Below, in pieces: positions 5,841 to 7,640 of a DNA stretch of 24,000 nt. Within the stretch, counting starts at the first letter, position 1. Every line of letters starts with the position of its first letter. The notes beneath the pieces were generated by a model. It worked only from the letters and a program-made list of their open reading frames with translations. It did no database searches and was not told the origin of the DNA. Both the position numbers and the translations under genes were made by a program. The stretch is from Gammaproteobacteria bacterium (GTDB lineage: Bacteria; Pseudomonadota; Gammaproteobacteria; Steroidobacterales; Woeseiaceae): the NCBI GenBank assembly GCA_024640305.1, contig JAHEFG010000001.1:203476-227475 (forward strand). The letters are read 5' to 3'.

Positions 5841-7640
5841 TTGGCGGCGACGCAACGTTTGAGCGACATACACATATTGATTATTGGCGGTGCCTCGCTC
5901 GACAGGCTGGATGGTGCTGATCAACTGGTTGCCGGTGGCGCCGGCATGTATACCGCAATGGCATGCCGGCGCAGCGGCGCAGCGGTTACCTTGTTTGCAC
6001 CGAGACCGGAGCCCGTCCCACCGGGTTTGCAGCAGCTTGCCGATAGCGTGTCGTGGCTCGGTCCGACCGTCGCACAGCAGGATCTGCCGCATTTTGAGAT
6101 AACACACCAGGATGGCCAGACCCGTTACGTGCAAGCCCACTTTGGCGCTGAGGAGTCGATATCGCCAGCGGGCCTGCCTGCCGATCTGTCCGGCTTTGAC
6201 TGCGTCCATCTTGTACCGCTCGGCAATATCCGCAATCAGTACAATTTCATGCTCGCCTGCCGTGCAAATGGTGCGCGCCGGATATCCGCCGGAACCGCTC
6301 TTGATCTGATTAATGAGCAGCCGGATGACGCGGTGACCCTGATGAATGAGGCGGACTTTTTCTTCATGAACGAGAAAGAGGCAGTGCGCTTGTTTGGGTC
6401 GATGGCCGAAGTCGAATCCCGGCCCGGGCAGACGATCTTTGTAACCCAGGGCAGTGAAGGTGCGACGGTCATTCAGGGCAAAGTCGCAACGCAGTTACCC
6501 GGTATTGCGGCAACAGTCCGGGACCCGACCGGCGCCGGGGACAGCTTTTGTGGCGCGACACTTGTCGGCCTGTCACTGGGGCATCACCCGGTCATGGCAG
6601 CACGCCGTGCAATGCCGCTTTCGGCACAAATGATCGGCGATATCGGACCAGCTGCACTATTGCTCCCAGCGCCCCCACCGGCTTTGCCTGCCGACGAGCG
6701 TGTTGTCGTTAACGCTGCACAGACAAGTCGCATCGCGGCCCTGATAGCCGACCTCGAGGACGTCACGCCTTACCCGTTTACCGGCCCGGACCTTCCGCAG
6801 CCCGGTCACCCGGCATCGCTTGACTATTTCTTCGCATCGACGCTGCAGCAATTCAGCTTCTGGACGACGAAGAACGGTCGATACGATCGTCCGCTTGTCG
6901 CCACAGTCGACGGGGAAGAACGCAAGGGTGCGTTCTACCTGTTTCGCGCCTATCTTCGCTGGCTCGAAAATACGCCGGAAATGCTGACGCCCGCGGGCCA
7001 GGCCGAGCTAAGCACCGCCGACATGAAAGCAGTGTTGCGTGCGGATGACGGCACGTTTCCGATGCCCGCTCTCGAATTACACCTGCAGTTGGCGCGCCAG
7101 TACGGGCGCGACATGCTGGCGCTTGGATTAACGCCCCAAACGGTGCTGGAGCAGGTCAATTCCTCGGCGGCCCCGCTGCGCACAATGTTTCAAATTCTCG
7201 ATAATGTCGGCGGATACAAGGAAGATCCACTGCGAAAAAAGACGGCGCTACTGGCCATAATCCTGCAACAACGGCCTGAAGCATTCGTTGCCAGCCACGA
7301 AGACGAAGTACCACCAGTGGTCGACTATCATGTCATGCGATCCTGCCTGCGCACTGGCCTGATCGACGTGGTAGACGACGAGCTCAAGAGCAAGTTGATC
7401 GGGCGAGAGCTATTGTCCGAAGCCGAAGAGTGGGCCGTGCGAAACGTTGCTCACAACGCCATTGAGCGCGTCGTATCCGAATCGGGAAAAAGCATGGGCG
7501 CGGTAGACTGGTTCTTTTTCCAGGCGCGCCAACGCTGTCCTGAAATGACCGAGCCACTCTGCGACCTGTGTGCGGTCAACCCTATTTGCGCCAGGCGCAA
7601 AGAGCTTTTTCAGCCGGTGCGCAGAACGACCTTTTACTGA
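5841..7640 (+). CDS. Fusion protein: N-terminal PfkB-family sugar/nucleoside kinase plus C-terminal Qng1/DUF2419 (queuosine-salvage, nucleoside-5'-phosphate N-glycosylase)-like domain
   Basis: Kinase half (about aa 1-275): ILIIGGASLD, LVAGGAGMYTAMA (GG motif), and DPTGAGDSFCGA (PfkB signature 2, nt 6522-6542). A Pro-rich linker LLLPAPPPALPADE follows at about 6660-6700. C-terminal half: DYFFASTLQQFSFW (nt 6828-6863) against human QNG1 FVTDTLNFSFW, VVDYHVMRSCL against FADYRLPQVL, and a C-terminal ...RRTTFY against ...RIRCIYY. No in-frame ATG lies upstream of the kinase core. The start is probably TTG 5841 or TTG 5859. Confidence 0.7.
   Translation: MAATQRLSDIHILIIGGASLDRLDGADQLVAGGAGMYTAMACRRSGAAVTLFAPRPEPVPPGLQQLADSVSWLGPTVAQQDLPHFEITHQDGQTRYVQAHFGAEESISPAGLPADLSGFDCVHLVPLGNIRNQYNFMLACRANGARRISAGTALDLINEQPDDAVTLMNEADFFFMNEKEAVRLFGSMAEVESRPGQTIFVTQGSEGATVIQGKVATQLPGIAATVRDPTGAGDSFCGATLVGLSLGHHPVMAARRAMPLSAQMIGDIGPAALLLPAPPPALPADERVVVNAAQTSRIAALIADLEDVTPYPFTGPDLPQPGHPASLDYFFASTLQQFSFWTTKNGRYDRPLVATVDGEERKGAFYLFRAYLRWLENTPEMLTPAGQAELSTADMKAVLRADDGTFPMPALELHLQLARQYGRDMLALGLTPQTVLEQVNSSAAPLRTMFQILDNVGGYKEDPLRKKTALLAIILQQRPEAFVASHEDEVPPVVDYHVMRSCLRTGLIDVVDDELKSKLIGRELLSEAEEWAVRNVAHNAIERVVSESGKSMGAVDWFFFQARQRCPEMTEPLCDLCAVNPICARRKELFQPVRRTTFY

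What the first reader, a model, noticed from the sequence alone, without database searches (positions are those of the whole stretch)
5841..7640. PfkB kinase fused to a Qng1/DUF2419 nucleotide N-glycosylase domain: a predicted phosphorylate-then-deglycosylate module
Seen in the sequence: one 599-aa ORF joins a PfkB kinase (GG motif, DPTGAGDSFCGA) through a Pro-rich linker to a domain carrying Qng1-family hallmarks (FFASTLQQFSFW, VVDYHV, C-terminal TTFY).

Established knowledge: Qng1 (DUF2419, human C9orf64) releases queuine from queuosine 5'-monophosphate, not from the free nucleoside. A nucleoside kinase is therefore the logically required upstream step. The same two-step logic is established for pseudouridine catabolism, where PsuK/YeiC (a PfkB kinase) acts before PsuG/YeiN (a glycosidase), and those two are fused in some eukaryotes.

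Inference: this protein phosphorylates a (modified) nucleoside at the 5' position and then cleaves the N-glycosidic bond, giving free base plus ribose-5-phosphate. I am not aware of a described kinase-Qng1 fusion or of the cognate queuosine kinase.
Basis: partly seen in the sequence, partly recalled or inferred. Interest (0 to 1): 0.85.

Follow-up and report, generated by a model that had tools for sequence, protein, structure and literature searches.

The report
Kinase fused to iron-sulfur Qng1-like glycosidase
One conserved bacterial gene joins a sugar/nucleoside kinase to a relative of the queuosine-salvage enzyme Qng1 that carries an unreported four-cysteine (probable iron-sulfur) motif; it probably phosphorylates a modified purine nucleoside and then cuts off its base, but probably not queuosine itself.

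Summary
One gene (most likely 5859-7640, 593 aa) encodes an intact PfkB kinase, a Pro-rich linker and a C-terminal Qng1-like domain. Both Pfam models pass their cut-offs. The fusion is conserved in over 100 protein clusters, and 324 GTDB species carry the C-domain family.

The C-domain is not an orthologue of Qng1. It belongs to a sister family (hhalign 98.6%, 21% identity). That family keeps the catalytic core: the HhH Lys, the Asp-Tyr pair, the guanine-edge Asp, and the R-T-x-x-Tyr-COOH tail. It has lost the queuine-specific residues (H53, D69, N72, Y93, D207).

Basic residues remain at the 5'-phosphate site. The kinase belongs to a dedicated subfamily that has co-evolved with the glycosidase. 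In Woeseiaceae-like genomes the gene lies in a nucleoside-catabolism island.

Best reading (about 0.5): nucleoside kinase, then nucleoside-5'-monophosphate N-glycosidase, acting on a guanine-type (possibly modified) purine. The substrate is unknown.

I found no literature on the fusion or the Cys motif. I class it as a new variant of a known kind, interest about 0.62.

The parts
5859..7640 (+). Fusion gene (593 aa plus stop). An in-frame upstream TTG at 5841 would give 599 aa.
   Evidence: ORF. Homologue lengths and N-termini. Start-region sequence.
5859..6656 (+). PfkB-family kinase domain (aa 1-266).
   Evidence: Pfam PfkB 63.3 bits. Profile match to PDB 3kd6, E=2e-16. Foldseek matches to ribokinases and nucleoside kinases at E about 1e-13, with the best TM of 0.74 to 3kd6.
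5880..5954 (+). N-terminal substrate-site motifs: IIGGASLD (Ser13, Asp15) and AGGAGMYT (the GG dipeptide).
   Evidence: G10, G11, S13, D15, G26, G27, A28, G29 and Y31 are invariant in 64 fused homologues. Coordinates.
6363..6380 (+). NxxE motif (FMNEKE), the Mg/phosphate site of PfkB kinases.
   Evidence: N171 and E174 are invariant. Coordinates.
6522..6557 (+). DPTGAGDSFCGA: anion hole and catalytic Asp228.
   Evidence: D222, T224, G225, A226, G227 and D228 are invariant. Coordinates.
6657..6698 (+). Pro-rich interdomain linker LLLPAPPPALPADE.
   Evidence: Sequence. This stretch is variable in homologues and has no regular secondary structure in the model.
6699..7637 (+). Qng1-like HhH-fold N-glycosidase domain (aa 281-593).
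   Evidence: Pfam Q_salvage 30.7-33.7 bits. Family profile against StQng1 7uk3, E=5.5e-15. hhalign probability 98.6%. Foldseek TM 0.71-0.80 to QNG1/StQng1.
6828..6863 (+). FFASTLQQFSFW, equivalent to StQng1 LVLDAVNFCFW. The ribose-stacking Phe-Trp pair is kept; D69 becomes T and N72 becomes Q.
7209..7241 (+). GGYKEDPLRKK: the HhH-motif Lys (K460, equivalent to St K199).
   Evidence: K is 100% conserved in fused and 97% in stand-alone members. Alignment.
7317..7358 (+). VVDYHVMRSCLRTG: catalytic Asp489 (St D231), Tyr490 (Y232), His491 in place of K233, plus invariant R494 and R498.
7500..7535 (+). AVDWFFFQARQR: Asp550 (St D298, which reads the guanine N1/N2 edge), Phe554 (W302), and invariant Arg557 at or next to the phosphate-contact Q306.
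7536..7589 (+). C-x7-C-x2-C-x5-C motif (CPEMTEPLCDLCAVNPIC), a probable [4Fe-4S] cluster loop. It lies in a stretch about 18 residues longer than in Qng1.
   Evidence: All four Cys are 99-100% conserved. The 18-residue span is present in 334 of 341 complete family members and in 0 of 120 canonical Qng1. One member gives a weak hit to PF10576 EndIII_4Fe-2S. The next-best folds after Qng1 are the Fe-S glycosylases MUTYH, EndoIII, MIG and MutY.
7605..7637 (+). C-terminal tail LFQPVRRTTFY-COOH, equivalent to the Qng1 R319-T320-x-F-Y323 tail whose carboxylate completes the active site.
   Evidence: 335 of 341 complete family members end in Tyr, with the consensus R-T-[TS]-x-Y. Role in Qng1 from PMC9881137.
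4861..5790 (-). Divergently transcribed PNP_UDP_1 nucleoside phosphorylase (uridine-phosphorylase-like), a conserved neighbour.
   Evidence: Pfam 93.6 bits. Best PDB match 3bje, E=3.6e-33. Same family within the flanking 8-10 kb in 12 loci, mostly immediately upstream and divergent.
7691..9196 (+). Co-oriented aldehyde dehydrogenase 50 bp downstream, probably in the same transcript.
   Evidence: Pfam Aldedh. PDB 3v4c at 742 bits. No credible terminator in the gap. Linked to the fusion in several loci.

Best explanation
The gene encodes a bifunctional enzyme of nucleoside catabolism or salvage. The N-terminal PfkB domain uses ATP to phosphorylate the 5'-OH of a purine nucleoside. The C-terminal Qng1-like domain then hydrolyses the N-glycosidic bond of the resulting nucleoside 5'-monophosphate, releasing the free base and ribose 5-phosphate.

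The C-domain is predicted to be closed by its own C-terminal Tyr carboxylate and stabilised by a four-Cys (probably [4Fe-4S]) loop. The base is most likely guanine-like on its Watson-Crick edge. It may be a modified or damaged purine that ordinary phosphorylases handle poorly, but it is probably not queuine.

Shown here: the domain identities, intact catalytic motifs, family relationships, the Cys motif, and conservation of the fusion and its genomic context. Inferred: the order of the reactions, the 5'-phosphate intermediate, Fe-S binding, and the nature of the base.
For: Kinase domain. PfkB scores above the Pfam cut-off, and the GG, NxxE and GAGD-Asp motifs are invariant. Its fold matches ribokinases and nucleoside kinases. 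The best single-sequence PDB hits are nucleoside kinases 3b1n/3b1r and 2c49.

Glycosidase domain. It is homologous to Qng1 over the whole domain. These Qng1 positions are kept: K199, I203 (as Leu), D231, Y232, D298, F75, W76 and the R-T-x-x-Y-COOH tail.

Phosphate site. It stays cationic. K233 becomes an invariant His. Q306 or G305 becomes an invariant Arg. R80 is Arg, Lys or His in about 80% of fused members. R494 and R498 are invariant additions.

Fusion. Qng1 enzymes prefer the 5'-monophosphate and need a free C-terminus (PMC9881137). In every fusion seen, the kinase is N-terminal and the glycosidase C-terminal. The kinase domains of distant fused clades are mutually homologous (28-43% identity) and diverge in step with the C-domains, which points to a long-standing functional partnership.

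Context in Woeseiaceae-like genomes. The neighbours are a 5'-nucleotidase, a nucleoside phosphorylase, an NCS2 purine-type permease, a TRZ/ATZ (MTA/5'-dAdo/8-oxoG-type) deaminase and phosphopentomutase.

Against queuosine as substrate. H53, D69, N72, Y93, W94 and D207 are replaced. One genome has this type and a canonical-type Qng1 1 kb apart.
Against: There is no biochemical evidence. No tool identified the substrate.

StQng1 itself prefers Q-5'MP over Q by only 1.7-fold, so homology does not prove a phosphate requirement.

The kinase acceptor site is atypical. From my memory of E. coli RbsK numbering, K43 becomes Ala and N46 becomes Tyr. It scores far below every NCBIfam equivalog cut-off.

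Stand-alone members of the family are not next to PfkB genes in the four contexts examined. In Chloroflexota the fusion sits in housekeeping-type neighbourhoods, so the catabolic-island context is lineage-specific.

The alignment around Q306 is ambiguous by one residue between hhalign and MAFFT.
Confidence: 0.5

Rival explanations
1. Queuosine-specific salvage. The kinase would be the missing queuosine kinase, and the C-domain would release queuine from Q-5'-monophosphate for a queuine-using TGT.
For: Pfam files the C-domain under Q_salvage. The catalytic core, the guanine-edge Asp and the C-terminal Tyr tail are shared with Qng1. W48 becomes Phe and W299 stays Trp, so part of the side-chain pocket remains aromatic. 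The Q kinase is still unidentified.
Against: Residues invariant in canonical Qng1 are replaced: H53 by Leu/Tyr/Phe, D69 by Thr/Cys/Ala, N72 by Gln, Y93 by Ala/Ser, W94 by Phe/Asp, and D207 by Ile/Ala/Val. These form the cyclopentenediol pocket and the proton relay that runs through the Q side-chain amine. Canonical-type and Fe-S-type paralogues coexist 1 kb apart in L089. None of the 120 canonical Qng1 retrieved is fused to a kinase. No tgt or que genes appear in the conserved neighbourhood.
Confidence: 0.12
2. Reverse order of reactions. The C-domain would be a nucleoside hydrolase giving base plus ribose, and the PfkB domain would be a ribokinase that traps the ribose as ribose 5-phosphate.
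For: Ribokinases are the top Foldseek hits by E-value. NCBIfam ribokinase and ribose-1-phosphate kinase models are the best, though weak, hits. StQng1 cleaves the free nucleoside almost as well as the nucleotide.
Against: The ribokinase equivalog TIGR02152 scores 36.7 bits against a cut-off of 299.65. The ribokinase GGKGAN motif reads GGAGMY here, losing the Lys and Asn that bind ribose (the RbsK residue roles are from my memory). Basic residues are conserved at the Qng1 phosphate site, including in stand-alone members.
Confidence: 0.12
3. The PfkB domain would phosphorylate ribose 1-phosphate made by the adjacent phosphorylase, as in the archaeal pentose-bisphosphate route. The C-domain would have an unrelated or regulatory role.
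For: The best NCBIfam hit is the ATP-dependent ribose-1-phosphate kinase model NF053626 (39.2 bits). A PNP_UDP_1 phosphorylase is divergently adjacent in most of the 12 loci that carry it.
Against: The score is far below the 330-bit cut-off. The phosphorylase neighbour is absent outside the Woeseiaceae-like group. Phosphopentomutase is present in the island, which already handles ribose 1-phosphate. This reading leaves the invariant catalytic residues of the C-domain unexplained.
Confidence: 0.04
4. The C-domain would be a DNA or RNA base-excision glycosylase of the EndoIII/MutY type, with the kinase acting on nucleic-acid ends.
For: It has the HhH fold. It has a four-Cys motif with EndoIII-like spacing and position. 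MUTYH and EndoIII are the next-best folds after Qng1. In Anaerolineales an alkyltransferase-like (PWQRV) gene lies next to the fusion.
Against: The Qng1-type beta-hairpin insertions and the C-terminal tail are retained; in Qng1 these block the DNA cleft (PMC9881137). TM to Qng1 is 0.71-0.80 against about 0.45-0.5 (query-normalised) to the DNA glycosylases. There is no Pfam HhH-GPD hit. PfkB kinases act on small molecules.
Confidence: 0.03

Closest known systems
Qng1/QNG1 (DUF2419, PF10343; queuosine 5'-phosphate N-glycosylase/hydrolase; PDB 7uk3, 7u91, 7ugk)
   Same: Same HhH-derived fold (TM 0.71-0.80). Same catalytic Asp-Tyr pair and HhH Lys. Same guanine-edge Asp, ribose-stacking Phe, and R-T-x-x-Tyr-COOH tail. 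The substrate is probably a mononucleotide.
   Different: Only 21% profile identity. The queuine pocket and proton-relay residues are lost. K233 is His, W302 is Phe, and an invariant Arg sits at or next to Q306. A stretch about 18 residues longer carries C-x7-C-x2-C-x5-C. The domain is often fused to a kinase, whereas none of the 120 canonical Qng1 examined is fused or has the Cys motif.
EndoIII/MutY/MIG family of [4Fe-4S] HhH DNA glycosylases
   Same: HhH superfamily. The four-Cys motif has almost identical spacing and lies in the C-terminal part of the domain. These are the next-best structural matches after Qng1.
   Different: No HhH-GPD Pfam match. The Qng1-type insertions and C-terminal tail that occlude the DNA cleft are retained. 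The domain is fused to a small-molecule kinase.
Pseudouridine kinase PsuK/YeiC plus pseudouridine-5'-phosphate glycosidase PsuG/YeiN
   Same: The same proposed logic: a PfkB kinase makes the 5'-monophosphate of a modified nucleoside, and a dedicated glycosidase then splits it into base and ribose 5-phosphate.
   Different: The glycosidase is not homologous (PsuG is not an HhH protein, and no such Pfam hit was found here). PsuG cleaves a C-C glycosidic bond. The resemblance is in how the pair works, not in family membership.
PfkB nucleoside kinases and ribokinases (PDB 3kd6, 2c49, 3b1n, 1rkd)
   Same: Same fold, with the GG, NxxE and GAGD catalytic motifs.
   Different: Far below every curated equivalog cut-off. 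The acceptor-site motif is unusual (GGAGMY), and the family has its own WLGP...LPxFEI motif.

Membership tests
PfkB carbohydrate/nucleoside kinase family (PF00294) | Profile score above the Pfam gathering threshold | tested here: met
   63.3 bits against 25.8.
PfkB carbohydrate/nucleoside kinase family (PF00294) | GG dipeptide, NxxE motif, and GAGD anion hole with catalytic Asp | tested here: met
   AGGAG, MNEKE and DPTGAGD are all invariant in 64 homologues.
PfkB carbohydrate/nucleoside kinase family (PF00294) | Ribokinase-like fold | tested here: met
   Foldseek E about 1e-13 and target-normalised TM up to 0.74.
Ribokinase RbsK (TIGR02152 equivalog) | Score above the curated equivalog cut-off | tested here: not met
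   36.7 bits against 299.65.
Ribokinase RbsK (TIGR02152 equivalog) | Ribose-binding Lys43 and Asn46 in the GGKGAN motif | tested here: not met
   The motif reads GGAGMY, with Ala28 and Tyr31 invariant. The roles of the RbsK residues are from my own knowledge, not from a tool.
Qng1/QNG1 (queuosine 5'-phosphate N-glycosylase/hydrolase, PF10343) | Profile score above the Pfam gathering threshold | tested here: met
   30.7-33.7 bits against 25, but only profile positions 7-131 of 285 are matched. 62 of 74 family members match at E<0.01. The pass is marginal.
Qng1/QNG1 (queuosine 5'-phosphate N-glycosylase/hydrolase, PF10343) | Qng1 fold, including the insertions | tested here: met
   Foldseek TM 0.71-0.80 to 7ugk, 7uk3 and 7u5a. 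hhalign probability 98.6% over 277 columns.
Qng1/QNG1 (queuosine 5'-phosphate N-glycosylase/hydrolase, PF10343) | Catalytic D231, ribose-stacking Y232 and F75, and HhH Lys K199 | tested here: met
   D489, Y490, F334 and K460 are 94-100% conserved.
Qng1/QNG1 (queuosine 5'-phosphate N-glycosylase/hydrolase, PF10343) | Invariant C-terminal Tyr whose carboxylate completes the active site | tested here: met
   The protein ends in ...RRTTFY. 335 of 341 complete family members end in Tyr.
Qng1/QNG1 (queuosine 5'-phosphate N-glycosylase/hydrolase, PF10343) | Queuine-specific pocket and proton relay (H53, D69, N72, Y93, W94, D207) | tested here: not met
   These are replaced by L, T, Q, A, F and I in the window protein, and by non-equivalent residues across the family.
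Qng1/QNG1 (queuosine 5'-phosphate N-glycosylase/hydrolase, PF10343) | 5'-phosphate contacts R80, K233 and Q306 | tested here: inconclusive
   R80 aligns with Arg in 54-64% of members, with further Lys or His. K233 is an invariant His. Q306 or G305 is an invariant Arg. The alignment is ambiguous by one residue.
Qng1/QNG1 (queuosine 5'-phosphate N-glycosylase/hydrolase, PF10343) | Releases queuine from Q-5'MP | not testable with these tools
   This needs an enzyme assay.
EndoIII/MutY-type [4Fe-4S] HhH DNA glycosylases | C-x6-C-x2-C-x5-C cluster motif in the C-terminal region | tested here: met
   C-x7-C-x2-C-x5-C, invariant, one residue longer in the first spacer. One member gives a weak PF10576 hit, E=0.006. 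The EndoIII spacing is from my own knowledge.
EndoIII/MutY-type [4Fe-4S] HhH DNA glycosylases | HhH-GPD domain signature (PF00730) | tested here: not met
   No PF00730 hit for the window protein or for the 74 family members.
EndoIII/MutY-type [4Fe-4S] HhH DNA glycosylases | Actually binds an Fe-S cluster, and acts on DNA | not testable with these tools
   This needs anaerobic purification, UV-vis/EPR spectroscopy and activity assays.
PsuK-PsuG pseudouridine pathway | PsuG-type glycosidase domain (Indigoidine_A family) | tested here: not met
   Pfam reports only PfkB and Q_salvage. The resemblance is in logic only.

The most novel reading that the evidence does not exclude
A widespread, unrecognised single-polypeptide pathway. 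It would contain the first kinase known to be dedicated to a Qng1-type nucleotide glycosidase, plus a new iron-sulfur branch of the HhH superfamily. It would dispose of or salvage a modified guanine-type nucleoside: a 7-deazaguanine such as queuosine or preQ nucleosides, or damaged or alkylated guanosine. By Rosetta-stone logic it also points to PfkB-family kinases as candidates for the still-unidentified eukaryotic queuosine kinase.
Probability: 0.3. Interest if true: 0.8.

Novelty: new variant of a known kind. Interest (0 to 1): 0.62.

Why it matters
First, the kinase that makes queuosine 5'-monophosphate for QNG1 is still unknown (PMC9881137, PMC12207525). A natural fusion of a PfkB kinase to a Qng1-family domain is the first genomic hint of which kinase family partners with such glycosidases. 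It gives a purifiable model enzyme to test this.

Second, the C-domain defines a sizeable sister family of Qng1: 415 clusters at 50% identity and 324 GTDB species. Its invariant four-Cys motif is like that of EndoIII and MutY. That would link mononucleotide glycosidases to Fe-S DNA glycosylases in evolution, and would add a new Fe-S enzyme class to nucleotide metabolism.

Third, kinase-then-NMP-glycosidase is the established way cells remove pseudouridine. A second, unrelated example for a purine would suggest this is a general solution for nucleosides that phosphorylases cannot split. It would also be relevant to how abundant sediment bacteria (Woeseiaceae, Anaerolineales) recycle nucleic-acid debris.

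Tried and rejected
- The search for related loci with the broad alignment A1 failed because it found no conserved stretch. It worked with the narrower alignment A2.
- A single-sequence PDB search with the C-domain gave only a non-significant QNG1 hit, E=0.25. A family profile was needed.
- The last 52 residues searched alone against PDB gave no EndoIII or MutY hit, only a non-significant match to the ferrochelatase Fe-S region, E=1.5.
- The genomic context of four stand-alone family members was heterogeneous, with no adjacent PfkB gene and no informative partner.
- Rfam scans of the window and 15 loci found no riboswitch that could name a ligand, only tRNAs.
- PADLOC gave no defence-system match.
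- No terminator or promoter call was informative.
- Zallot et al. 2014, the comparative-genomics paper on DUF2419, could not be read. I cannot exclude that bacterial fusions are mentioned there.
- I considered and rejected two ideas: that the ORF is a mis-joined pair of genes (full-length conservation in over 100 clusters), and that the C-domain is an inactive remnant (all catalytic residues are invariant).
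Full report
**1. The observation**

The window has a 599-codon ORF at 5841..7640 on the + strand. Pfam reports PfkB (63.3 bits, cut-off 25.8) and Q_salvage PF10343 (30.7 bits, cut-off 25, profile positions 7-131 of 285 only).

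Homologues are almost all 592-598 aa and begin about four residues before ILIIGG. The true start is therefore probably the second in-frame TTG at 5859, giving 593 aa.

The protein search returned more than 120 full-length clusters at 62-100% identity, nearly all carrying both Pfam domains. Their sources label them only as 'PfkB family carbohydrate kinase', 'ribokinase' or 'hypothetical'. AlphaFold2 models are confident: whole protein pLDDT 89.3 and pTM 0.83; C-domain alone pLDDT 94.8 and pTM 0.93.

**2. The kinase half**

The GG dipeptide (AGGAG), the NxxE motif (MNEKE) and the DPTGAGD anion hole with its catalytic Asp are invariant in 64 fused homologues.

- Foldseek matches ribokinases and nucleoside kinases at E about 1e-13. 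The best superposition is on 3kd6, titled 'nucleoside kinase from Chlorobium tepidum' (TM 0.74).
- The best single-sequence PDB hits are the nucleoside kinases of Burkholderia thailandensis and Methanocaldococcus jannaschii.
- Every NCBIfam equivalog scores 17-39 bits against cut-offs of 216-500. This includes ribokinase, ribose-1-phosphate kinase and nucleoside kinase. The domain is therefore not an orthologue of any named kinase.
- The ribokinase GGKGAN motif reads GGAGMY here. The ribose-contacting Lys and Asn are replaced by invariant Ala and Tyr. The roles of those ribokinase residues are from my own knowledge, not from a tool.

**3. The glycosidase half is a sister family of Qng1**

A full-library HMMER search with the C-domain found 415 clusters at 50% identity. 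They include fused forms (about 540-640 aa) and stand-alone forms (about 310-340 aa).

Homology to Qng1 is clear:
- A profile of the family matches StQng1 (7uk3) at E=5.5e-15 over residues 15-308.
- Profile-profile comparison with 30 canonical bacterial Qng1 gives 98.6% probability, E=1e-15 and 21% identity over 277 columns.
- The C-domain model superposes on human QNG1 and StQng1 with TM 0.71-0.80.

I mapped the residues that Hung et al. (PMC9881137) showed to matter.

| StQng1 residue | Role in Qng1 | In this family |
|---|---|---|
| F75, W76 | F75 stacks on the ribose; W76 is the invariant neighbour | Kept |
| K199 | HhH Lys | Kept |
| I203 | Base sandwich | Leu |
| D231, Y232 | Catalytic Asp, ribose Tyr | Kept |
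| D298 | Reads the guanine N1/N2 edge | Kept |
| W299 | Cyclopentenediol pocket | Kept (Trp in 90% of fused, 44% of stand-alone) |
| R319-T320-x-x-Y323-COOH | Tail whose carboxylate completes the active site | Kept |
| H53 | Cyclopentenediol pocket | L/Y/F |
| D69 | Proton relay | T/C/A |
| N72 | Proton relay | Q |
| Y93 | Cyclopentenediol pocket | A/S |
| W94 | Cyclopentenediol pocket | F/D |
| D207 | Proton relay | I/A/V |

The kept positions are 90-100% conserved, except W299. The six replaced residues build the cyclopentenediol pocket and the proton relay that runs through the queuosine side-chain amine.

At the phosphate site:
- K233 is an invariant His.
- Q306 or G305 is an invariant Arg (the two alignments differ by one residue).
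- R80 aligns with Arg, Lys or His in most members.
- Two further Arg residues (R494, R498) are invariant.

**4.

Between the D298 helix and the C-terminal tail the family has a stretch about 18 residues longer than in Qng1. It carries C-x7-C-x2-C-x5-C (CPEMTEPLCDLCAVNPIC, nt 7536-7589).

- Each of the four Cys is 99-100% conserved.
- The 18-residue span is present in 334 of 341 members that have a complete C-terminus, and in 0 of 120 canonical Qng1.
- Its spacing and position resemble the [4Fe-4S] cluster loop of EndoIII and MutY (my knowledge).
- One family member weakly matches PF10576 'EndIII_4Fe-2S'.
- After Qng1, the next-best structural matches are the Fe-S glycosylases MUTYH, EndoIII, MIG and MutY. 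They rank ahead of AGOG and OGG1.

Cluster binding itself is an inference.

**5. The fusion is old and directional**

In every fused protein the kinase is N-terminal and the glycosidase C-terminal. This fits Qng1's need for a free C-terminal carboxylate.

In a rough NJ tree, stand-alone forms are basal and diverse, and fused forms fall in two clades. The kinase domains of those clades are mutually homologous: 28-43% identity, with a shared WLGP...LPxFEI motif. They diverge about as much as the C-domains do. This argues for a single dedicated kinase subfamily that has stayed with this glycosidase. None of the 120 canonical Qng1 retrieved is fused.

**6. Distribution and genomic context**

A scan of GTDB species representatives found 324 genomes with a relative. 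The best 80 are uncultured Woeseiaceae and other Gammaproteobacteria, Anaerolineales and other Chloroflexota, Neomarinimicrobiota, Gemmatimonadales and others. Named stand-alone forms come from Kiritimatiellia, Verrucomicrobia and Hydrogenedentota MAGs.

In Woeseiaceae-like loci the neighbourhood is conserved. The gene order is:
- PhyH, HAD hydrolase, UshA-like 5'-nucleotidase, Zn-ADH, an aldehyde dehydrogenase whose best match is the succinate-semialdehyde dehydrogenase model, an unknown 190-aa protein, sometimes a 2OG oxygenase;
- a divergently transcribed uridine-phosphorylase-like PNP_UDP_1 gene;
- the fusion;
- then either an aldehyde dehydrogenase or an NCS2 purine-type permease;
- a TRZ/ATZ deaminase (related to MTA, 5'-deoxyadenosine and 8-oxoguanine deaminases), a small membrane protein, and phosphopentomutase.

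This is a nucleoside and nucleotide catabolism island.

In Anaerolineales the neighbours are SurE, an ASCH protein, membrane glycosyltransferase-like proteins, an alkyltransferase-like protein, Dus and HolA. These are mostly housekeeping genes, though several deal with nucleotides or modified bases.

The four stand-alone contexts examined were heterogeneous, with no adjacent PfkB gene. In L089 an Fe-S-type gene and a canonical-type Qng1 gene lie 1 kb apart. This suggests the two families have different substrates.

**7. Mechanism**

The best-supported reading has two steps.
1. The PfkB domain phosphorylates the 5'-OH of a nucleoside.
2. The Qng1-like domain hydrolyses the N-glycosidic bond of the 5'-monophosphate, giving free base plus ribose 5-phosphate.

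The evidence for this order:
- the precedent of Qng1, where Q-5'MP is preferred 12-fold by the human enzyme and 1.7-fold by the bacterial one;
- the retained cationic phosphate site;
- the departure of the kinase from ribokinase signatures;
- the persistence of the fusion.

The retained Asp that reads the guanine N1/N2 edge and the hydrophobic sandwich point to a guanine-like purine. Loss of the queuine-specific residues argues against queuosine. Canonical Qng1 does not cleave AMP, GMP, UMP or CMP, so the altered pocket could have opened the enzyme to another base. The identity of the base is not determined.

I give this reading a confidence of 0.5. The rivals are:
- queuosine-specific salvage, 0.12;
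- hydrolase first, then ribokinase, 0.12;
- ribose-1-phosphate kinase, 0.04;
- nucleic-acid glycosylase, 0.03.

**8. Comparison with what is known, and novelty**

The protein works like the PsuK/PsuG pseudouridine pair and like the proposed eukaryotic 'unknown kinase plus QNG1' route. By homology it belongs to the PfkB family and to the Qng1 superfamily.

It fails the queuine-specific membership features of Qng1. It adds an EndoIII-like Cys motif that no canonical Qng1 has.

Full-text searches found no 'queuosine kinase', no Qng1 paper mentioning 4Fe-4S, and no discussion of a PfkB-Q_salvage architecture. As of 2025 the Q kinase is still called unidentified. I could not read Zallot et al. 2014.

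I class the finding as a new variant of a known kind. It is real, widespread and uncharacterised, it has a directly testable biochemical hypothesis, and it carries an unexpected probable cofactor. Interest 0.62.

Noticed in passing
window 7536-7589 (aa 560-577 of the 593-aa protein): An invariant C-x7-C-x2-C-x5-C motif in the Qng1-like domain resembles the EndoIII/MutY [4Fe-4S] loop.
   Followed up: yes
window 73-4844 (+): Four co-oriented genes recur together in 10 or more related loci, even where they are separated from the fusion or inverted relative to it. They are a UshA-like 5'-nucleotidase, a class-III-like Zn alcohol dehydrogenase, an aldehyde dehydrogenase whose best match is the succinate-semialdehyde dehydrogenase model, and a 190-aa protein with no family match. 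Why a nucleotidase travels with an ADH/ALDH pair is unexplained; oxidation at the nucleoside 5' position is one speculation.
   Followed up: partly
window 7691-9196 (+): An aldehyde dehydrogenase lies 50 bp downstream of the fusion on the same strand, with no terminator between them. It is very close to the uncharacterised NADP+ ALDH 3v4c (742 bits) and to Vibrio harveyi ALDH. Among NCBIfam models its weak best matches include the 2,5-dioxovalerate dehydrogenase model. Its aldehyde substrate, and any link to the fusion's products, are unknown.
   Followed up: partly
window 4861-5790 (-): A 309-aa PNP_UDP_1 phosphorylase is transcribed divergently from the fusion, leaving about 50-70 bp between the two genes. 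Its closest solved relative is the Trypanosoma brucei nucleoside (uridine) phosphorylase 3bje. It scores below the cut-offs of all NCBIfam uridine and purine phosphorylase equivalogs.
   Followed up: partly
window 10197-12687 (-), 9241-10191 (+): A YjjI-like glycyl-radical enzyme (685 bits) and its radical-SAM activase sit next to a LysR regulator. They are present only in the closest relatives (L001, L002, L006), so they are probably unrelated to the fusion. The function of YjjI-type enzymes is itself unknown.
   Followed up: no
window 12784-14244 (+), 14244-14675 (+), 15127-16326 (-): A TRZ/ATZ-family deaminase (488 bits against the 540 cut-off of PRK09045; related to MTA, 5'-deoxyadenosine and 8-oxoguanine deaminases), a small hydrophobic protein and phosphopentomutase DeoB are conserved downstream of the fusion in several Woeseiaceae-like loci.
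   Followed up: partly
L027, L029-L032, L035, L036, L042 (Anaerolineales), about 6 kb upstream of the fusion: A conserved gene string of SurE nucleotidase, an ASCH-domain protein, two membrane glycosyltransferase-like proteins and an alkyltransferase-like MGMT-fold protein (PWQRV in place of PCHRV) lies upstream of the fusion, ending next to it or one small ORF away. This may hint at handling of modified or alkylated guanine, or may only be shared synteny of related genomes.
   Followed up: partly
L089 6001-10008: One contig encodes an Fe-S-type Qng1-like protein (316 aa), a SpoU-family methylase, a canonical-type Qng1 paralogue (321 aa, with DNL in place of DYK), and then a radical-SAM protein that looks RlmN-like from its sequence (not checked with a profile).
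   Followed up: partly
window 5841 vs 5859: There are two in-frame TTG start candidates 18 nt apart. Homologue N-termini favour 5859. No clear Shine-Dalgarno sequence is visible upstream of either.
   Followed up: partly
window 16763-21250 (-): A cytochrome c oxidase operon (COX2 with fused cytochrome c, COX1, and two COX3-like genes) is syntenic in L003, L016 and L022. It is ordinary and unrelated to the finding.
   Followed up: no
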